DNA of 64,000 nucleotides, taken from contig OY969775.1 of NCBI GenBank assembly GCA_963702975.1, positions 102,851 through 166,850 on the forward strand, given 5' to 3'. This stretch comes from an uncultured Solirubrobacteraceae bacterium (GTDB taxonomy: Bacteria; Actinomycetota; Thermoleophilia; Solirubrobacterales; Solirubrobacteraceae). How positions within the stretch are numbered: position 1 is the first letter of the stretch; each line of letters begins with the position of its first letter. The translations under genes were made by a program, and so were the position numbers. This document shows positions 13,089 to 51,719 of this stretch, one piece after another. The notes beneath the pieces are model-generated. The model ran no database searches. It worked only from the letters and a program-made list of their open reading frames with translations, and had not been told where the DNA came from.

Positions 13089-13212
13089 CGCAGTGCGAAC
13101 TTACCAGCGCCGGCGCCCCCGCGCGACAGCCCCGTCGCCGCCGGCGTCGGCAACAAAGCTTGCAGTCCTGCCGCTGGAATGCATCTTGCAGCGAGATCTG
13201 TTAGGTTGCCGC

Positions 13213-13352
13213 CCGTTCGTGCCGAGTCCTCGCCCCCCAGGGGGTCGAGGAGCGGGGGACCCAATGCAGTCGTGAGACTGCTGGGGCGAATCGCCACCGA
13301 GTGTGGCGTAGCGTAGACGTTTACGCGAGCCCGTCAGCTAACCCCGTAGGCG
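13213..13352 (+). ncRNA. Cyclic di-AMP (ydaO/yuaA) riboswitch
   Basis: GCCGAGTCCT...AGGAGCGGGGGACCCA...GGGGCGAATC...GCCCGTCAGCTAACCCCGTAGGC; upstream of a cell-wall hydrolase, the usual actinobacterial context. Confidence 0.92.
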
Positions 13353-13384
13353 CCATGCAAAGGAATGGAGAAAGGACGCCTCGG

Positions 13385-15207
13385 ATGCCGGGATCCACGC
13401 GTGATCTTGCTGTTGTCGACCACTGGAGCGCATCGCTCGAGCGCTCGCGCGAACGCCGTGCTCGCGCCCAGCGCGGGCGCATTCGCCGCGGCGCCCACGC
13501 GAGCGGCTCGCTGTCCGCGCTGCTGGCGCACCCCAGCGCGATCGCCCAGCCGCGCGATCTCGCCGACGAGCAGCCGTGGCAGCTCTCGCTCGGGCGCTCG
13601 CGCGCACGCAGGCGCGCCGCCGAGCTGCGCTTCGTCCCGAGCGGCTCCCGCGCCAAGCGCGTGTCGCTCGGCGCGCTCGTGGCGCTGACGGTCGGCCCCA
13701 CCGCGAGCCTCGCCAGCGGCCAGTCGGCGGCCGGCTCGGCGGCCAACCCGGAACCGGCGACCACCACCGAACACGTGATCACGCTCAGCTCCGGCAGCGA
13801 AGGCCGCCAGGTGCAGCTGCTGCAGCAGGCGCTCGGCGGCGTCAAGGTCGACGGCGTCTTCGGCCCGGAAACGGAAGCCGCGGTCCGCAGCTTCCAGGAA
13901 CGCAGCGGCCTCGCCGTCGACGGCGTCGTCGGTGCGCAGACGAGCTCCGCGCTGCACACGCAGAGTGCCGGCAAGGCGTTCATCGCGGACGTCAGCAGCG
14001 CGCTCCCCGGGACCGCGTCGCTGCCCGCACCGTCCACGTCCGAAGCTTCAACGTCAGAAGCTTCAACGTCAGAAGCGTCCACGTCGACTTCGACGACGAG
14101 CGGCGACACGGCCGCGGGCGCAGAAGCCGCCACGGGCGGCGAAGGCGCCGCGCACCTCGCGAGCGACACCACCGGCGGCTCGCAGGCGACGCCGGAACTC
14201 GAACCGGCGGAAGCGGAAGCTGAAGCCAAGAGCGTGGAAGCCGAAAAGCAGGCCGAAGAACAGCGCACGCAGGAAACGGAAGCGGGCGCGGTCAAGCAGC
14301 TGCAGAGCGCGCTGCGCGTCAGCGCCGACGGCGACTTCGGCCCCGCAACCGAGGCCGCGGTGCGCCGCCTGCAGGCCCGCCACGGCCTCACGGTCGACGG
14401 CATCGTCGGCCCTGCGACGTGGAACGTGATCGGCGTCCACGGCCAGCAGACGCTGACCCCCCCGCCTCCGCGCTGCCCAAGCCGGCCGCGCCGCGACACG
14501 CGGCGGCGATCGCCGCGACGAGCGACGTCGGGCTCACCGCGGGCAGCGGCGGCACGCAGGAAGCCGGCCAGGAAACCGCCACGGGCGCGACCGCGGTCGA
14601 GTGGCTGCAGAAGGCGCTGAAGCTCCCCGTCGACGGCGAATTCGGCCCCGAAACCGAGGCGGCGGTCCGCCGCCTGCAGGCCCGCCACGGCCTCGCGGTC
14701 GACGGCGTCGTCGGCCCCTCGACGTGGGCCGTGATCGGCGTGCAGGACGCGGCCACGCTCACGCCTCCCCCCTCCGCGCTCGCCGCGCCGAGCTCGCCGG
14801 GCGGCGCCGCCGGCACGGACGCCACCGGCGCGGGCGGCGGCGGCGAAGCCGAAAGCATCGTCGCGCGGGTGATCGCCGCAGCGGATGAAATCGCGACGCG
14901 CCCGTACGTGTGGGGCGGCGGGCACGGCTCGTTCGAGTCCGAAGGCTACGACTGCTCGGGCTCGGTCTCCTACGCGCTGCACGGCGGCGGGCTGCTCAGC
15001 TCGCCCGAGGACTCGACGGGCCTCGAGTCATACGGCGAACCCGGGCCCGGCAGGTACATCACGATCTACGCCAACGCCGAACACGCGTGGATGACCATCG
15101 ACGGCAAACGCTTCGACACCGTCGCCCTCGCCGAAGACGGCTCCCGCTGGGGCGGGTCCGGCGACGACGGCGGCGGCTTCGTCGAACGGCACCCGGCCGG
15201 GCTGTAG
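13385..15207 (+). pseudogene. Peptidoglycan-binding (3 domains) + NlpC/P60-like hydrolase, split by a 1-nt frameshift near 14457-14467
   Basis: Three V.LQ.AL...DG.FGP.TEAAVR..Q...GL.VDG.VG..T units; C-terminal PYVWGGGHG..YDCSGSVSYAL...H; frame changes at CTGACCCCCCCGCCTCC (frame 13301 continues in frame 14419). Confidence 0.85.
14033..14086 (+). repeat. Coding 15-nt tandem repeat (STSEA x3) in a linker
   Basis: TCCACGTCCGAAGCT TCAACGTCAGAAGCT TCAACGTCAGAAGCG TCCACGTCG. Confidence 0.8.
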
Positions 15208-15209
15208 TT

Positions 15210-15328
15210 CGGGGGCGCGCATGCGCGCCCCCGCGTAGGGCCGCATGCGGCCCTACGGTCACGCCGCATGCGGCGTGCCCCCGGTGGGCGCATGCGCCCA
15301 CCGGCTCCCCCGCACATGTGCGGGGGAG
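15210..15328. repeat. Array of five tandem ~24-bp palindromes centred on RCATGY
   Basis: CGGGGGCGCGCA|TGCGCGCCCCCG, CGTAGGGCCGCA|TGCGGCCCTACG, gtCACGCCGCA|TGCGGCGTGcc, CCGGTGGGCGCA|TGCGCCCACCGG, CTCCCCCGCACA|TGTGCGGGGGAG; centre spacings 24, 23, 24, 24. Confidence 0.95.
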
Positions 15329-47160: not shown

Positions 47161-49176
47161 TTAGACCATTGGGGCGCCGGCGCGGTTGGCACGGCGGGCC
47201 TGCTCGACCGGCGAGTCGCGCGCGGCGGGAGCGGTGACGATCACCCTACATGAGGCCTTGCGCACGACGTACTTGGTGATCTCCCCCACGTAGCCCTCGA
47301 GCGTCCCGCCGCGGCCGCCCAGGCGCGCGCCGCCGCGGATCGACGAGGGCTCCTCGGCGCCGAGCACGATCGCCTCGACGCCGCGCCTGCGCGCCTCGTC
47401 GACGATCGCGTAGCCGGCGCGGCGGGTGCGCAGGGTGGCGGTGGCGACGTGCACGCCGTTGTACTCCTCCCCCACCGCCTTGGCGCGCGCGAGCACCTGG
47501 CGCGCGTGCTTGATCTGCGCCTCCGGCAGGCTGGCGTCGAGCGGCAGCGACATGGGGATCACGAACATCCACACCGCCTCGATCGTGGCGGCGTCGATCG
47601 CCGCCTCGTCGGTCTGCTCGCCGGCGACCAGCAGCGCGGCGGTCTGCACGATGTCGTCGTCGAGGTCGGTGCCGAACAGCGGCACGAGGATCGAGCCGTA
47701 GTCGCGCTCCTGGTGGGGCTCGGCGCGCAGCACCTGCGGCGCGACGGTGACGCGGCGCAGCAGCGAGGTTTCGTCGGCGCGGCGGTAGAACACGTACAGC
47801 GCGATCCCCACCGCCATCCAGCCGAGGCCGACGTAGCGGGCGGGTTCGTGCACGACCATCACCGCCACCAGGCCGCCGCCTGACACGAGCGCGCCGAACG
47901 CCGCCGGCAGCGGCAGCTGGCCGCCTTTGACGGTGATCGACAGCGGCACGCGGTAGGGGCGGTCGCGGTCGGGCTCGGTGTAGCGCAGGCGGCAGATCGA
48001 CAGATGCGCGATCGTGAACGCGAGCATCGCGCCGAACGCGTAGATGCCGACGAGGAAGTCGAGGTCCTCGGGCGCGACCAGCGCGGCGGCGATCAGGCCG
48101 GCGAGGATGATCAGCACATACGGCGTGGAGCGCACCGGGTGCAGCCGCCCGAGGCCGCTGGGGATCTGGCGGTTGGTGGACAGCGAGTAGGCCAGGCGCG
48201 AGAGGCCGAGCATCGCCGAGTTGGCGGCCGCGACGAGCGTCACGGCGGCGGTGGCGGCGACGAGGTAGGTGAGCGTCTGCTCGAGCCAGTGCGGGTGCAC
48301 GCGGCTGACGACGCCGATCATCGGCGCGTTCAGGTAGCGCCCGGCGAGCGCGGTGTGGCCGTCGTGCACGGGCAGCGCGGTGATGGCGACGAGCGCGATG
48401 CCCACGTACAGGAAGGCGACGGTCGCGGTGGTGCTCCCCACTAGGCGCTTGAGCCCGGCGCGGCTGATCCGCACCTCGCCGGCGAGACCGGATGCGGACT
48501 CGAGGCTCGTGAACGAGATCACGGCGACGGTCAGCGCGAAGATCAGCTGCGACCACGTCGGTGTGCTGCCGAGGTGGATGGGCGCGGTGAGCGTGTGCGG
48601 GTCGAAGAACAGCACCAGCCCGAGCACGACGATGAACGCCTGCAGCGCGAGGTCGCCCGCCAGCAGCATGCCCACGCGCCGCGCGCGCCGGGCGCCGAAG
48701 CCGCGGATGTTGCCGAGCACCACGAAGGCGATGAACGCGAGCGCCAGCCCGAGCGCCTCGCCGCGGTTGCCCAGCGGGCTCCAGAACGTCTTCAGGTACT
48801 GGGTCGCCGAGTACGCGGTGACCGCGATCAGGATCACGTAGTCGAGCAGGATCGCCCAGCCGGCGACGAAGCTGACGAGCTCGTTGAACGCGTGGCGCGC
48901 GAACACGGTCGCGCCGCCGCGCTCCTGGTGCAGCGACGCGCCCTCCACGTAGGTCATCGCCGTCAGCGCGTACAGCACTGCCGCGATCAGGAACACCAGC
49001 GGCGTCAGCCCCAGCGCATGGCCGGAGATCACCCCCAGCGAGAAGTAGATCGCGCTCGCCAGCGACGAGTACACGATCGTGAACAGGATCGGCGAGCCGA
49101 TGCTGCGCCGCGCGATCGTGCGCGAGCGCGCCGCCAGCTCCGCGAGCTCCGAGGCGGGGCTCTCCGGCGCGCTCAT
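47161..49176 (-). CDS. APC family permease fused to a universal stress protein (USP) domain
   Basis: About 12 TM (GSAIYFSLG-like, Y.EGAS..ERGG, LDY), then YGSILVP...AIVDEARRRGVEAIVLG...VVRKASCRV. Confidence 0.88.
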   Translation of the reverse strand: MSAPESPASELAELAARSRTIARRSIGSPILFTIVYSSLASAIYFSLGVISGHALGLTPLVFLIAAVLYALTAMTYVEGASLHQERGGATVFARHAFNELVSFVAGWAILLDYVILIAVTAYSATQYLKTFWSPLGNRGEALGLALAFIAFVVLGNIRGFGARRARRVGMLLAGDLALQAFIVVLGLVLFFDPHTLTAPIHLGSTPTWSQLIFALTVAVISFTSLESASGLAGEVRISRAGLKRLVGSTTATVAFLYVGIALVAITALPVHDGHTALAGRYLNAPMIGVVSRVHPHWLEQTLTYLVAATAAVTLVAAANSAMLGLSRLAYSLSTNRQIPSGLGRLHPVRSTPYVLIILAGLIAAALVAPEDLDFLVGIYAFGAMLAFTIAHLSICRLRYTEPDRDRPYRVPLSITVKGGQLPLPAAFGALVSGGGLVAVMVVHEPARYVGLGWMAVGIALYVFYRRADETSLLRRVTVAPQVLRAEPHQERDYGSILVPLFGTDLDDDIVQTAALLVAGEQTDEAAIDAATIEAVWMFVIPMSLPLDASLPEAQIKHARQVLARAKAVGEEYNGVHVATATLRTRRAGYAIVDEARRRGVEAIVLGAEEPSSIRGGARLGGRGGTLEGYVGEITKYVVRKASCRVIVTAPAARDSPVEQARRANRAGAPMV

Positions 49177-49370
49177 CGCCCCCGCGCCCTCCTGACCTCC
49201 ACGTACCAGCGCCCGCTGCCAGCCGCGATGAACAGCGCGCCCAGCAGCAGCCGCACCGAGATCGACCCCGTTTGCACGAACGCCGCCTGCACGATCAGCG
49301 CCACGCCGATCGCCACCATCGCCAGCGAGAGCACGAACGTGCCCATCCGGTGCGCCTGTCGACCGTTCAT
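49173..49370 (-). CDS. Small 2-TM hypothetical protein
   Basis: ATGA overlap with the APC gene; two hydrophobic helices. Confidence 0.65.
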   Translation of the reverse strand: MNGRQAHRMGTFVLSLAMVAIGVALIVQAAFVQTGSISVRLLLGALFIAAGSGRWYVEVRRARGR

Positions 49371-49406
49371 CTCAGCTGAGGTTATTCCCGTGCCCACGAT
49401 GCTGTA

Positions 49407-49478
49407 CCGGGTGGCGCATGCGCCACCCGGCCGGACGGTGCACGCACCGTCCGGTGGGGCCGCACATGTGCGGCCCCG
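49407..49478. repeat. Array of three tandem 24-bp palindromes, same family as 15210-15328
   Basis: CCGGGTGGCGCA|TGCGCCACCCGG, CCGGACGGTGCA|cGCACCGTCCGG, tGGGGCCGCACA|TGTGCGGCCCCg; centre spacing 24, 24. Confidence 0.93.
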
Positions 49479-49485
49479 GGACAAA

Positions 49486-51564
49486 TCACGTGATCAGCGG
49501 AATGATCAGGATCGCGACGATGTTGGCGACCTTGATCATCGGGTTGATGGCCGGCCCGGAGGTGTCCTTGAAGGGGTCGCCGACGGTGTCTCCGGTGACC
49601 GACGCGGCGTGGGCGTCAGAGCCCTTGCCGCCGAAGGCGCCGTCCTCGATGAGCTTCTTGGCGTTGTCCCACGCGCCGCCGCCGGCGGTCATCATCACGG
49701 CGAAGAAGAAGCCGACGACGATCACGCCGATCAGCAGGCCGCCGAGCGCCTGCGTGTCGATCAGGCCGACGATCACCGTCAGGCCGATCGGCAGCAGCGA
49801 GGGCAGGATCATCTCGCGCTGGGCCGTCTTGGTGACGATGTCAACGCATGTCGCGTAGTCGGGGTCTTCGGTCCCCTCCATGATGCCCGGGTGCTCGCGG
49901 AACTGGCGGCGCACCTCCTCGACGACCGCGCCGCCGGCGCGCCCGACGGCCTCCATCGACAGCGACGCGAACAGGCAGACCATCATGCCTCCGAGCAGCA
50001 GGCCGATCAGCACCGGCGGTTCGTTGATGCCGAAGTTGATGAACGCGCCGTGGCTCTTTTCGGCGAGCTCCTGGCGGAAGCCCGCGAACAGCACCACAGC
50101 CGCCATCACCGCCGAGCCGATCGCGTAGCCCTTGGTCACCGCCTTGGTCGTGTTGCCGACCGCGTCGAGCGGGTCGGTGACGTTGCGAACCTCCTCCGGC
50201 AGGTCGGCCATCTCGGCGATTCCGCCCGCGTTGTCGGTGATCGGACCGAACGCGTCGAGCGCGACGATCAGGCCTGTCAGCGACAGCTGGCCCATGACGG
50301 CCACGCCGATGCCGTAGATGCCCGTCGTGCCGCCGCCCGCGAGCTTCCACGCGCCGAGGACACCGAGCACGAGCACGATCGCCGGCGCCGCCGTCGCCTG
50401 CAGGCCCGACCCGAAGCCCTGGATGATGTTCGTTGCGTGACCGGTGATCGACGCTTTCGCGGTCTTCTTCACCGGCGAAAAGCGCGTAGAGGTGTAGTAG
50501 TCGGTAATCACGAACAGGCACGCCGTGACCGCGATCCCGATCAGCGCGCACAGGTAGAACTTGCCCCATGAGGGCGTGTTGACCGTGTTGCCCACCTGGC
50601 TGAAGGACAGGCCGCGCATCATCCAGTAGGTGATCGGCGCGAACGCCGCGCCGGCGATCACGCCGGAGACGATCAGGCCCTGGTAGAGCGCGCGCTCGAC
50701 GTTGCCCGCTTTCGAGCGCACCGCGAAGGTGCCGATGATCGACGCGATGATCGCCGCGCCCCCCAGCACCAGCGGGTAGAGCACCACGCGCGTGGACTCG
50801 TGGAAGGTCAGCACGCCCAGCAGCATCACCGCGACCGCGGTCACCGCGTAGGTCTCGAACAGGTCGGCCGCCATGCCCGCGCAGTCGCCGACGTTGTCGC
50901 CGACGTTGTCCGCGATCGTCGCCGGGTTGCGCGGGTCGTCCTCGGGGATCCCCGCCTCGACCTTGCCGACGAGATCGGCGCCCACGTCGGCCGCCTTCGT
51001 GAAGATGCCGCCGCCGAGCCTCGCGAACACCGAGATCAGCGAGCCGCCGAAGCCGAGGCCGATCAGCGCGTCCACCGCGCTCTTCTGCGTTTCGCCGAAC
51101 GCGCTCGTCAGCAGGCCGTAGTAGCCGGAGACGCCCAGCAGCGCCAGGCCCACCACCAGCAGGCCGGTGATCGCGCCGCCACGGAAGGCGACCTGCAGGG
51201 CCGGCGAGACGCCGCCACGCGCGGCCTCCGCCACGCGGGCGTTCGCGCGCACCGACACGTTCATACCGATGTAGCCCGCCGAGCCTGACAGGACCGCGCC
51301 GATCAGGAAGCCGGCGGCGACGGCGATGTTCTGGATGAAGATCAGCGCCACGAACACGACCACCCCGACCGCGGCGATCGTCGTGTACTGCCGGTTCAGG
51401 TACGCCCGCGCACCTTGCTGAACAGCGAGTGAGATCGACTGCATGCGCTCGTTGCCCGGCGAAAGCGCCAGCAGGGATCGTGCGGTCAACAGGCCGTACG
51501 CGACTGCGCAAGCGGCGCAAACGAGGCCGACGACGACCCCATGGTTCGTCAGAAAGCTGCTCAA
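49486..51564 (-). CDS. hppA: Membrane-bound proton-translocating pyrophosphatase, K+-independent signature
   Basis: [43 protein letters not shown] (Lys), [10 protein letters not shown]; TTG start after GGAGG. Confidence 0.96.
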
Positions 51565-51719
51565 CAGAAATCCTCCGCGGTCTGATTTGCGTGCCGCGCG
51601 AGGATGTGTCGCGCGCACGTCTGACGGCCGGACTGCTCAGCACGAGCGCGCATCCGGTGCAAACGCGGGCGAAGTCTATCGTGCCGGCCGGCCGGGTGCC
51701 GGCCAGCGCCCGCTGTCCG

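What the first reader, a model, noticed from the sequence alone, without database searches (positions are those of the whole stretch)
49407..49478. Second RCATGY palindrome array, same period and polarity, 34 kb away
Three units have centres exactly 24 bp apart and share no full arm with array 1. The GCACATGTGC-centred unit is again rightmost, and GCTGTA lies just left of both arrays (49401-49406; 15201-15206). The middle unit has a single central T-to-C change (GCACGC) with perfect arms. The array starts 7 nt after the hppA stop, inside a probable operon. Independent recurrence makes chance very unlikely and shows a dispersed family with a shared grammar.
Basis: seen in the sequence. Interest (0 to 1): 0.8.

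Follow-up and report, generated by a model that had tools for sequence, protein, structure and literature searches.

The report
Dispersed CATG-centred palindrome array repeat
The three back-to-back palindromes after hppA are one copy of an apparently undescribed, selfish-looking repeat family confined to one group of uncultured soil actinobacteria, whose 24-bp units keep an invariant CATG centre while both arms change together, so every unit stays a perfect palindrome.

Summary
Window 49407-49478 holds three abutting 24-bp palindromes with centres exactly 24 bp apart, 7 nt after the stop of hppA (minus strand).

It is one of 26 such arrays (100 units, 3-5 per array) in this 3.48-Mb, 70% GC Solirubrobacterales genome. 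Simulated genomes give 0-1 such palindromes against 86 real ones.

- **Distribution:** the arrays occur in most congeners searched (19 of 25 in the first sample, 14-168 pattern hits each). They are rare in four sister genera and absent from the rest of the phylum sample.
- **Unit structure:** units share only a YRCATGYR core. The arms are free but 98-99% Watson-Crick, with almost no G·T. Orthologous units differ by 19 both-arm changes against 3 one-arm changes.
- **Context:** arrays lie mostly just after stop codons, but also in divergent spacers, between hisA and hisF, and in frame inside leuS and an ABC-F gene. They are gained or lost between species.
- **Known mobilisers:** no RAYT or TnpB gene, no Rfam family and no T-tract was found.

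Best reading: a REP/BIME-like selfish hairpin repeat without RAYT, kept symmetric at the DNA level. Any RNA 3'-end effect is a by-product.

The parts
49398..49406 (.). Head flank GATGCTGTA, a local version of the family's GATGYNGTT head motif.
   Evidence: sequence. flank table: G 38/52, T 34/52 and T 26/52 at positions -3 to -1. One search shows the same motif in other genomes of the genus.
49407..49430 (.). Unit 1 (A-type), CCGGGTGGCGCATGCGCCACCCGG: a perfect 24-bp palindrome with a GCATGC centre.
   Evidence: 12/12 pairs. An identical unit sits at the orthologous hppA site of G015.
49431..49454 (.). Unit 2, CCGGACGGTGCACGCACCGTCCGG: perfect arms, with a single loop or centre change (GCACGC).
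   Evidence: Orthologous units in G015 and G051 keep GCATGC and differ from this one by one both-arm change each.
49455..49478 (.). Unit 3 (B-type), TGGGGCCGCACATGTGCGGCCCCG: an ACATGT centre and a perfect 22-bp core at 49456-49477.
   Evidence: The B unit CGGGGCCGCACATGTGCGGCCCCG recurs exactly in at least 5 other arrays.
49479..49485 (-). 7-nt spacer between the hppA stop codon and the array.
49486..51618 (-). hppA, the membrane H+-pyrophosphatase gene. The stop codon is at 49486-49488; the start codon is uncertain.
   Evidence: ORF. Pfam PF03030, E 9e-257.
49173..49370 (-). Small conserved membrane-protein ORF downstream of the array. It overlaps by 4 nt the start of an amino-acid permease/Usp gene (47161-49176).
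   Evidence: The ORF is conserved after hppA across the genus.
49371..49397 (-). Spacer that carries the genus-conserved (A)ATAA(G/C)CTCAG...GAGATG motif. This is a possible -10 element plus short leader for the small ORF (inferred).
   Evidence: Comparison of orthologous loci by eye. The sigma-70 consensus scan found nothing.
15210..15328 (.). Array 1 of the same family: five units, 2 nt after the stop of a peptidoglycan-binding NlpC/P60-like gene.

Best explanation
The array is one insertion of a lineage-restricted, non-autonomous, REP/BIME-like repeat family.

**Structure (shown).** The building block is a 24-bp perfect palindrome, which as a single strand folds into a 10-11-bp hairpin with a CATG loop. 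Only the 8-bp centre YRCATGYR is fixed. Blocks abut with no spacer, in arrays of 3-5 here and up to 6 in relatives. Arrays are polar: a GTT-ended head motif (about GATGYNGTT) adjoins a CCGG...CCGG 'A' unit. This is usually followed by the ACATGT-centred 'B' unit and then a GAC...GTC 'C' unit.

**Dynamics (shown).** Arrays sit where insertions are tolerated and are gained, lost and remodelled between species.

**Maintenance (shown in part, inferred in part).** The symmetry of the arms is kept at the DNA level, not by selection on an RNA. Inferred: a change in one arm is either reverted or copied into the other arm. This would happen by intrastrand, hairpin-templated synthesis (quasipalindrome template switching), or by a copying step that passes through a single-stranded hairpin. 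The centre is the hairpin loop and cannot be corrected this way. Its near-invariance therefore implies that whatever propagates or retains the units recognises it.

**Local effect (inferred).** In the hppA transcript the array folds into three very stable hairpins starting 7 nt after the stop codon. It most likely acts incidentally as a barrier to 3'-exonucleases, or as a partial 3'-end or insulator, ahead of the next gene's own start signals.
For: **Family and statistics**
- 26 arrays and 100 units (88 distinct), spaced 23-26 bp with a mode of 24. No solitary unit with arms of 10 bp or more was found.
- 86 RCATGY-centred perfect palindromes, against 0-1 in simulated genomes.

**Core and arms**
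- The core is C/T, G/A, then CATG (98% invariant). Other positions carry 0.1-0.5 bit.
- Arm positions 5-11 are 97.7% Watson-Crick here and 99.2% in other genomes. With shuffled partners the figures are 44% and 40%, never above 52%. All four pair types occur at every arm position.
- G·T pairs number 2 of 616 and 1 of 588 cells.
- Orthologous units differ by 19 both-arm changes against 3 one-arm changes. The 2 loop changes counted are the same GCACGC centre of unit 2, seen against both G015 and G051.

**Distribution**
- 19 of 25 congeners are positive, with 14-168 pattern hits.
- Contiguous congeners G147, G014 and G024 have none.
- Sister genera g14, g46 and g61 have low copy numbers.
- None of the other genomes in a 300-genome sample of the phylum has real arrays.

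**Turnover**
- The hppA site holds 3 units in G000, G051 and G015, with different composition. It holds 1 relic in G064 and 5 in G065, and no RCATGY array was evident in at least 8 other congeners read (e.g. G001, G059, G018, G013, G012).
- Three arrays are present in G000 but missing from G051, G064 and G015.

**Tolerated-site pattern**
- 24 of 26 arrays are intergenic.
- In 13 of 15 co-directional spacers the array is nearer the upstream stop. The median distances are 24 nt to the stop and 83 nt to the next start.
- Arrays also lie in 6 divergent spacers and between hisA and hisF.
- Two lie in frame in intact genes: leuS (900 aa) and an ABC-F gene (686 aa).

**Fold**
- Three hairpins, -75.6 kcal/mol, z = -4.8.

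**Literature**
- Template switching at quasipalindromes is an established mutational mechanism (PMC7202029).
Against: - No mobilising enzyme was found. PF01797 (Y1/RAYT) and PF07282 (TnpB) are absent.
- No target-site duplication or clean empty site could be defined, because spacers between species of about 80% identity do not align.
- Some arrays have stayed at the same locus since G000 and G015 diverged, and are better conserved than the surrounding spacer. This could mean host function rather than selfishness.
- Adjacent units are no more alike than units of other arrays (mean difference 4.12 against 3.87 of 7 positions). Simple local duplication therefore does not explain array growth.
The RNA-level consequence is untested.
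Confidence: 0.6

Rival explanations
1. The arrays are purpose-built RNA elements: tandem factor-independent terminators or attenuators, or mRNA 3'-stabilisers, selected at each locus for their RNA hairpins.
For: - Most arrays start 1-40 nt after a stop codon.
- The transcript fold is extremely stable.
- High-GC actinobacteria commonly use hairpins without U-tracts as 3' ends (my own background knowledge).
- Congeners that lack the array carry other GC-rich hairpins after hppA.
Against: - G·U-type pairs are almost absent, at about 0.2-0.3% of arm cells. Selection on an RNA stem would tolerate them.
- Head orientation shows no consistent relation to the direction of transcription (by eye).
- Six arrays lie in divergent spacers.
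- Arrays lie in frame inside leuS and an ABC-F gene and between hisA and hisF. An efficient terminator would be harmful there.
- No T-tract is present.
- The array is absent from the same site in many congeners.
Confidence: 0.15
2. The arrays are phased double-stranded DNA binding sites for a dimeric protein that reads the YRCATGYR core, such as a nucleoid-associated, gyrase-like or regulatory protein. The arrays would give cooperative loading.
For: - The 8-bp palindromic core is invariant and the repeat period is a strict 24 bp.
- Several arrays are conserved at orthologous loci better than the flanking spacer.
- E. coli BIMEs bind IHF (PMC3333891), and gyrase as well from my memory.
- There is a 0.73-Mb array-free gap around the GC-skew minimum.
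Against: - A protein that reads the core does not explain why free arms must stay perfectly complementary.
- Isolated RCATGY sites are neither enriched nor avoided genome-wide (one search counts against my composition-based expectation).
- Arrays occur inside coding regions.
- The chromosomal distribution is not significantly non-random (p = 0.16; my rough estimate for a gap of that size is about 0.07).
Confidence: 0.1
3. This is a classical REP/REPIN population mobilised by a cognate RAYT (TnpA_REP).
For: - The elements are dispersed, intergenic and hairpin-forming, clustered in arrays whose unit number varies between strains. This resembles BIME-2 (PMC3333891).
- A short conserved motif lies 5' of the hairpin foot, and it reads GTAG at 4 array ends.
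Against: - There is no PF01797 match in this single-contig genome, and only one in 24 congeners. TnpB is also absent.
- The units are perfect palindromes. E. coli TnpA_REP needs the stem mismatch, and a perfected REP is neither bound nor cut (PMC3333891).
- Units are 24 bp rather than 30-40 nt, and their sequences are hypervariable rather than conserved.
Confidence: 0.04
4. The pattern is chance or an assembly or polishing artefact of long-read metagenome bins.
For: The genomes are metagenome-assembled. At least one relative (G051) shows apparent frameshift errors in leuS.
Against: - Simulations give 0-1 such palindromes against 86 observed.
- The same family appears in dozens of independent assemblies from both fragmented and contiguous bins.
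- Orthologous arrays are shared between species.
Confidence: 0.01

Closest known systems
REP elements and their BIME clusters, especially the tandem BIME-2 arrays of E. coli, and REPINs (PMC3333891, PMC3116915, PMC3337134)
   Same: - Short GC-rich hairpin-forming repeats dispersed in spacers, often just after genes or inside operons.
- Clustered in arrays whose unit number differs between loci and between strains.
- A short conserved motif lies at the hairpin foot.
- Vertically persistent populations restricted to one lineage.
   Different: - Units here are 24-bp perfect palindromes with hypervariable, co-varying arms and an invariant centre. REPs are 30-40-nt imperfect palindromes of conserved sequence, whose stem mismatch is required by TnpA_REP.
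- Units abut without linkers and do not alternate REP/iREP.
- No RAYT gene was found.
- The head motif flanks the array, not each unit.
Rickettsia palindromic elements (RPEs) (mentioned in PMC1458961 and PMC10969869; the in-frame behaviour is from my own knowledge of Ogata et al. 2000)
   Same: A palindromic selfish repeat that can sit in frame inside intact protein-coding genes. Here these are leuS and an ABC-F ATPase, and the 24-bp period equals 8 codons.
   Different: - There is no sequence relationship.
- RPEs are single elements of roughly 100-150 bp, not arrays of 24-bp modules.
- Only 2 of the 26 arrays here are in coding sequence.
Quasipalindrome template-switch hotspots (PMC7202029)
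   Same: This is a mechanism that turns an imperfect inverted repeat into a perfect one by copying one arm from the other. It predicts exactly the both-arm changes and the lack of mismatches seen here.
   Different: It is known as a laboratory mutational hotspot, not as the maintenance mode of a natural repeat family. Its action here is inferred, not shown.
Integron attC sites
   Same: Recombination sites defined by a conserved folded structure with largely free sequence and short conserved ends (GTT...AAC-type cores). One pair of near-identical arrays here brackets a RES-toxin gene pair.
   Different: - There are no cassette arrays, and the copies are dispersed among housekeeping genes.
- attC sites are imperfect, with extrahelical bases.
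- No integron integrase was sought or seen. This resemblance comes from my memory only.
Hairpin-only ('I-shaped') intrinsic terminators of high-GC actinobacteria
   Same: GC-rich hairpins without a U-tract, placed just after stop codons.
   Different: The arrays form a family with a shared core, are independent of orientation, and also occur in divergent spacers and inside genes.

Membership tests
REP/BIME-RAYT system | A cognate REP-associated Y1 tyrosine transposase (RAYT/TnpA_REP) is encoded in the genome. | tested here: not met
   PF01797 gave no candidates in the single-contig own genome (94% complete). Only 1 of 24 congeners had a hit, while the positive-control genomes did match.
REP/BIME-RAYT system | The unit is a 30-40-nt imperfect palindrome, and its stem mismatch is needed for TnpA_REP binding and cleavage (PMC3333891). 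| tested here: not met
   Units are 24 bp, and positions 1-11 from the centre are 98.5-99.3% Watson-Crick.
REP/BIME-RAYT system | A conserved GTAG tetranucleotide lies 5' of each hairpin foot. | tested here: not met
   A conserved motif (about GATGYNGTT) lies only at array ends. GTAG occurs at 4 of 52 ends.
REP/BIME-RAYT system | Many dispersed extragenic copies, clustered in arrays whose unit number varies between loci and strains. | tested here: met
   There are 26 arrays of 3-5 units, 24 of them intergenic. Unit number and type differ at orthologous hppA loci.
IS200/IS605-derived palindrome-associated elements | TnpA (Y1) and/or TnpB genes of that family are present in the lineage. | tested here: not met
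   PF01797 and PF07282 are absent from array-rich genomes.
MITE | Terminal inverted repeats, a target-site duplication, and a related autonomous insertion sequence. | tested here: inconclusive
   - GTT...AAC-type inverted flanks are present at many arrays.
- No direct repeat was evident.
- Empty sites do not align well enough to define junctions.
- A parent insertion sequence was not sought beyond Y1 and TnpB.
Intrinsic (Rho-independent) terminator | A GC-rich hairpin followed by a T/U tract, located at a transcript end. | tested here: not met
   The scan found no terminator-like site in 49100-49700. Arrays also lie inside leuS and an ABC-F gene and between hisA and hisF.
Any Rfam RNA family | A match at or above the family's gathering score. 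| tested here: not met
   At the gathering threshold the window yields only the c-di-AMP riboswitch and four tRNAs. The permissive scan of 49330-49530 gave only weak hairpin-type hits of 16-26 bits against thresholds of 40-100.
Rickettsia palindromic elements | Homologous sequence of about 100-150 bp, inserted in frame in genes. | tested here: not met
   In-frame insertion was seen in 2 of 26 arrays. The unit architecture is different. Sequence homology was not tested against RPEs.
Integron attC | An adjacent integron integrase and tandem gene cassettes, each ending in an attC site. | not tested
   The context argues against membership, since the neighbours are housekeeping genes. No IntI search was run.

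The most novel reading that the evidence does not exclude
The single 24-bp palindrome is itself the mobile or recombining module of a new kind of hairpin element.

- An unidentified enzyme, neither RAYT nor TnpB, would recognise the CATG loop or centre in single-stranded or cruciform DNA. It would cut or join there and add units next to existing ones.
- The second arm would be regenerated from the first at each copying step. That would explain why arms are hypervariable yet perfect.
- It would also explain why adjacent units are unrelated, and why a foreign mini-hairpin module (CCGATCGRAGATCGGCC) repeatedly replaces exactly the left arm up to the CATG, at different loci and in different species.
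Probability: 0.15. Interest if true: 0.85.

Novelty: new variant of a known kind. Interest (0 to 1): 0.6.

Why it matters
- **A natural test of palindrome evolution.** The family offers hundreds of units in which only symmetry and an 8-bp centre are conserved. The data point to DNA-level symmetrisation (hairpin-templated correction), not RNA selection, as the force that keeps them perfect. That process has so far been studied mainly as a laboratory mutational hotspot.
- **REP-like populations without RAYT.** The family shows that REP-like hairpin-repeat populations can exist without a RAYT gene. This raises the question of what propagates them.
- **Practical consequences.** Such arrays break short-read assemblies, and most highly fragmented congeners (200-390 contigs) show 0-1 pattern hits. 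They insert 8-codon modules into genes such as leuS. They would also be useful strain-typing markers for a widespread but uncultured soil lineage.

Tried and rejected
- **RAYT / Y1 transposase (PF01797):** absent.
- **TnpB (PF07282):** absent in 10 congeners.
- **Rfam:** nothing at gathering or permissive thresholds beyond weak generic hairpin hits.
- **Viral contigs:** 0 hits for an A-B unit-pair pattern.
- **Plasmid and phage blastn:** no match.
- **Promoter and terminator consensus scan:** nothing found.
- **Tandem duplication as the source of arrays:** rejected, because adjacent units are not more similar than units elsewhere.
- **Restriction-site avoidance or enrichment of RCATGY:** GCATGC occurs 1358 times and ACATGT 290 times. 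My composition-based expectations are about 1170 and 207, so there is no avoidance.
- **Replication-strand bias of head orientation:** none seen by eye among oriented arrays, using the origin and terminus placed by GC skew.
- **Clustering near the terminus:** not significant (16 of 26, p = 0.16).
- **Closing stem between the two flanks:** only weak beyond the shared GTT/AAC.
- **Exact insertion junctions and target duplications from empty sites:** spacers are too diverged to align.
- **An HNH endonuclease gene next to one array:** noted but not pursued, as it looks like an ordinary conserved gene.

Full report
**1. What is at the coordinates**

Window 49407-49478 reads CCGGGTGGCGCATGCGCCACCCGG | CCGGACGGTGCACGCACCGTCCGG | TGGGGCCGCACATGTGCGGCCCCG.
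- Units 1 and 3 are perfect palindromes, of 24 bp and a 22-bp core respectively.
- Unit 2 has perfect arms and one central change (GCACGC).
- The centres are exactly 24 bp apart.

The neighbouring genes are as follows.
- hppA (Pfam H_PPase, E 9e-257) is on the minus strand and stops at 49486-49488. The array therefore begins 7 nt after the stop in the direction of transcription.
- Downstream on the same strand is a small conserved membrane ORF (49173-49370).
- That ORF overlaps by 4 nt an amino-acid permease/Usp gene.
- Array 1 (15210-15328) has five units of the same kind.

**2. It is a genome-wide family, not a coincidence**

The window is C1:102851-166850 of a single-contig genome of 3.48 Mb and 70.4% GC.
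- Of the 118 perfect palindromes with arms of at least 11 bp, 86 are centred on GCATGC or ACATGT.
- Five order-2 Markov simulations of the genome gave 5-13 such palindromes, of which 0-1 were RCATGY-centred.
- A tolerant scan groups the units into 26 arrays: 9 with three units, 12 with four and 5 with five. That is 100 units, 88 of them distinct, spaced 23-26 bp with a mode of 24.
- No solitary unit with arms of 10 bp or more exists.

**3. Anatomy of a unit**

Only the centre is fixed.
- Position -4 is C (91%) or T, position -3 is G (68%) or A, and CATG is 98% invariant.
- The remaining arm positions carry 0.1-0.5 bit each.

The arms are nevertheless complementary.
- At arm positions 5-11, 97.7% of pairs are Watson-Crick in this genome. 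In 84 distinct units from other genomes the figure is 99.2%.
- When arms are paired with the arms of other units, the figures fall to 44% and 40%, with a maximum of 52% over 1000 shuffles.
- All four Watson-Crick pair types are used at every arm position.
- G·T pairs are almost absent: 2 of 616 cells and 1 of 588 cells.

G·U pairs are common and tolerated in RNA helices (established knowledge). Their absence means the constraint acts on both strands at once. It is therefore a constraint on DNA complementarity, or on a copying mechanism, and not on one transcript.

**4. Grammar of an array**

Arrays have a polarity that comes from unit order and from one flank.
- Next to a CCGG...CCGG 'A' unit lies a head motif of roughly GATGYNGTT. 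Over 52 array ends, G occurs 38 times at position -3, T 34 times at -2 and T 26 times at -1, against a background T frequency of 15%.
- The same motif appears in other genomes of the genus.
- A common order is head-A (GCATGC), then B (CGGGGCCGCACATGTGCGGCCCCG), then C (GACnnnGCCGCATGCGGCnnnGTC). Examples are at genome positions 1676473, 2488268 and 2797573.
- In 12 of the 18 arrays I could orient by eye, the ACATGT unit is second from the head.
- The array under study reads head (GATGCTGTA), A, A', B.
- An exact GCTGT[TA] lies near only 5 array ends.
- At array 1 it is the Leu codon plus part of the TAG stop of the upstream gene, and CTGTAG also ends that gene in G015, where no RCATGY array is seen at that site.
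- Adjacent units are no more alike than units of different arrays (4.12 against 3.87 differences out of 7). Arrays therefore do not simply grow by local duplication.

**5. Where arrays sit**

I used a codon-usage gene caller of my own (3128 genes covering 88% of the genome).
- 24 of 26 arrays are intergenic: 15 in co-directional spacers, 3 in convergent spacers and 6 in divergent spacers. This is close to the genome-wide proportions of spacer types.
- In 13 of the 15 co-directional spacers the array is nearer the upstream stop. The median distances are 24 nt to the stop and 83 nt to the next start (my sign test gives about 0.007).
- The neighbours are ordinary housekeeping genes, including ftsZ, dnaK, rpsG, recO, recG, a sigma factor and pdxS (by reading the products).
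- One array lies between hisA and hisF, 6 nt after the hisA stop.
- Two arrays lie in frame inside intact genes. In leuS (900 aa) the array encodes ETGPHAAPSGAAHVRPRGTARVPSR, between the catalytic core and the anticodon-binding domain. In an ABC-F ATPase (686 aa) it encodes RTGPHAGRPGAAHVRPLGEAHAPPRQPAHAPAG.
- The 24-bp period equals 8 codons.
- The leuS insertion is absent from the orthologues in G015 and G064. The G051 copy looks frameshifted by assembly errors.
- A paralogue 34% identical to this LeuRS exists at 2.86 Mb, so the essentiality of this leuS copy is not proven.

These positions are not compatible with an obligate, efficient terminator.

**6. Taxonomic distribution**

The nearest hppA relatives are metagenome bins labelled Solirubrobacterales or Solirubrobacteraceae. 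I searched with a three-unit pattern, CATGYN{17,20}RCATGYN{17,20}RCATG.
- This genome gives 51 hits.
- 19 of 25 same-genus genomes are positive, with 14-168 hits.
- 0 of 16 genomes from other families of the order are positive. The reversed control pattern gives about 0.
- Most highly fragmented congeners show 0-1 hits, probably because repeats break assemblies. However, contiguous congeners G147 (1 contig), G014 (9 contigs) and G024 (10 contigs) are also negative.
- In 146 genomes from 50 other genera of the family, real arrays occur only at low copy number in four genomes of three genera (g14, g46, g61).
- In 300 genomes from 199 genera of the phylum, no genome other than G000 has more than 2 hits. 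The listed matches are non-palindromic, chance or coding sequences.
- There are no matches in viral contigs, plasmids or phages.

**7. Turnover at orthologous loci**

After hppA, the spacer differs between species.
- G000 has B-A'-A.
- G015 has C-type, A', A. Its A unit is identical to that of G000.
- G051 has three units. In one of them, a CCGATCGGAGATCGG mini-hairpin replaces the left arm.
- G064 has one relic unit with centre GCGTGC.
- G065 has five units.
- In at least 8 other congeners read (e.g. G001, G059, G018, G013, G012) no RCATGY array is evident; some carry unrelated GC-rich hairpins instead.

I then searched three congeners with the concatenated flanks of 16 arrays, fetched 20 regions and aligned them.
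- Three arrays (genome 295914, 2488268 and 2764428) are present only in G000.
- Four (428585, 1135457, 1676473 and the hppA array) are shared with G015.
- One further array (2508346) is shared with G051, which also shares the hppA array.
- Where arrays are shared, units are more conserved than the surrounding spacer, which is essentially unalignable.
- Shared units differ by 19 both-arm changes that keep the pair, against 3 one-arm changes. 127 pair positions are unchanged. The 2 loop changes counted are the same GCACGC centre of unit 2, seen against both G015 and G051.

**8. What it is not**

- No RAYT/Y1 transposase was found: there are no candidates in this genome, while control genomes matched.
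- No TnpB was found.
- No Rfam family reaches threshold.
- No T-tract terminator or sigma-70 consensus was found.

According to PMC3333891:
- E. coli REPs are 30-40-nt imperfect palindromes with a 5' GTAG.
- TnpA_REP needs both the GTAG and the stem mismatch.
- A perfected REP is neither bound nor cut.

The present units fail these defining features, so I do not file them as REP/RAYT members. They do behave like BIME-2 arrays in being tandem and variable in number between loci and strains.

**9. How it most likely works**

*Shown:*
- the family and its architecture;
- the restricted distribution;
- gain and loss between species;
- coupling of the two arms at the DNA level;
- tolerance of arrays inside operons and reading frames.

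*Inferred:*
- **Propagation.** The arrays are selfish, non-autonomous DNA that survives where insertions are tolerated.
- **Arm symmetry.** Arms stay perfect because a mutation in one arm is reverted or copied to the other. This would occur by intrastrand template switching at the hairpin, a mechanism established for quasipalindromes (PMC7202029), or through a copying step that involves a single-stranded hairpin.
- **The centre.** It forms the loop and cannot be corrected this way. Its invariance therefore implies recognition by whatever propagates or retains the units.
- **Effect at hppA.** The transcript is predicted to fold into three 10-bp hairpins (-75.6 kcal/mol, z = -4.8) starting 7 nt after the stop. 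This probably impedes 3' exonucleases, or partly ends or insulates the hppA message, as REPs do in E. coli (my own knowledge). The hairpins lie upstream of a genus-conserved TAAGCTCAG...GAGATG motif, which may be the small ORF's own -10 element and leader.
- **Possible effect on termination.** A hairpin this close to the stop codon might also interfere with terminating ribosomes, as I recall being reported for E. coli REPs by Liang, Rudd and Deutscher in 2015. I could not retrieve that paper.

**10. Earlier notes of this scan**

- After forming my reading, I found that two earlier follow-ups on other genomes describe the same family and reach similar conclusions.
- The first-stage note on array 1 of this genome was also listed.
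- These are not independent evidence. I re-derived each point here.

**11. Limits**

- Gene calls are my own approximate ones.
- Orientation and grammar counts were made by eye.
- Insertion junctions could not be resolved at this level of divergence.
- The mobilising mechanism is unknown.

Noticed in passing
window 13210-13367 (+): A c-di-AMP (ydaO-type) riboswitch (72.8 bits) lies upstream of the peptidoglycan-binding NlpC/P60-like gene 14416-15207. That gene ends 2 nt before array 1.
   Followed up: partly
G000:C1:295914-295985 and 428585-428680 (outside the window): Two arrays lie in frame inside intact genes: leuS (900 aa) and an ABC-F ATPase (686 aa). Both add a similar peptide of the form TGPHA..GAAHVRP.. 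The leuS copy is absent from orthologues in G015 and G064. A class-I synthetase paralogue 34% identical to this LeuRS lies at 2.86 Mb.
   Followed up: yes
G000:C1:3466725-3466843 (outside the window): A five-unit array sits between hisA and hisF, 6 nt after the hisA stop and touching the predicted hisF start. It therefore lies inside a classic biosynthetic operon.
   Followed up: partly
G000:C1:1457431-1457523 and 1459086-1459155 (outside the window): Two near-identical arrays in the same orientation bracket a 1.56-kb segment. The segment encodes a RES-domain protein (Pfam E 7e-14) and a 230-aa partner, a toxin-antitoxin-like pair. This may be a cassette moved or duplicated together with its arrays.
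   Followed up: partly
L100 (G051), L175 (G051), L121 (G065), L133 (G023), L172 (G015); G000:C1:1268023 and 3273501: A mini-hairpin module, CCGATCGRAGATCGGCC[A/G]RCATG, replaces exactly the left arm of A-, B- or C-type units. This happens at different loci in four other species. G000 has two solitary copies outside arrays. The pattern hints at breakage and joining at the CATG centre.
   Followed up: partly
L001/L127 (G019, after hppA), L162 (G064), and G000 just left of the array at 3403665: A second, unrelated dispersed repeat occurs in this genus: GCGTCCTCAGTCGCTCGTGTGCA...CACACTTCGCTCC(C/T)TGCGTCCTTG. It sometimes occupies the same spacers as the palindrome arrays.
   Followed up: no
G000:C1:2049910-2050039 (outside the window): A 25-bp non-palindromic tandem repeat (CATGCGCCGGGCCATCAAGGCTCGG, at least 5 copies) was picked up by the CATG pattern search.
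   Followed up: no
window 49371-49397 (-) and orthologous loci L100-L126: The motif (A)ATAAGCTCAG-N3-5-GAGATG is conserved across the genus immediately upstream of the small ORF after hppA. It may be a -10 element with a very short leader.
   Followed up: partly
G000:C1:1.68-2.41 Mb: The longest array-free stretch (0.73 Mb) spans the cumulative GC-skew minimum at about 2.14 Mb. My rough estimate of the probability of such a gap is about 0.07, so it is only suggestive.
   Followed up: partly
L158 (G051:C12:23721-24417): The leuS orthologue in G051 translates with apparent frameshifts relative to G000, G015 and G064. This is probably consensus error in the long-read assembly.
   Followed up: no
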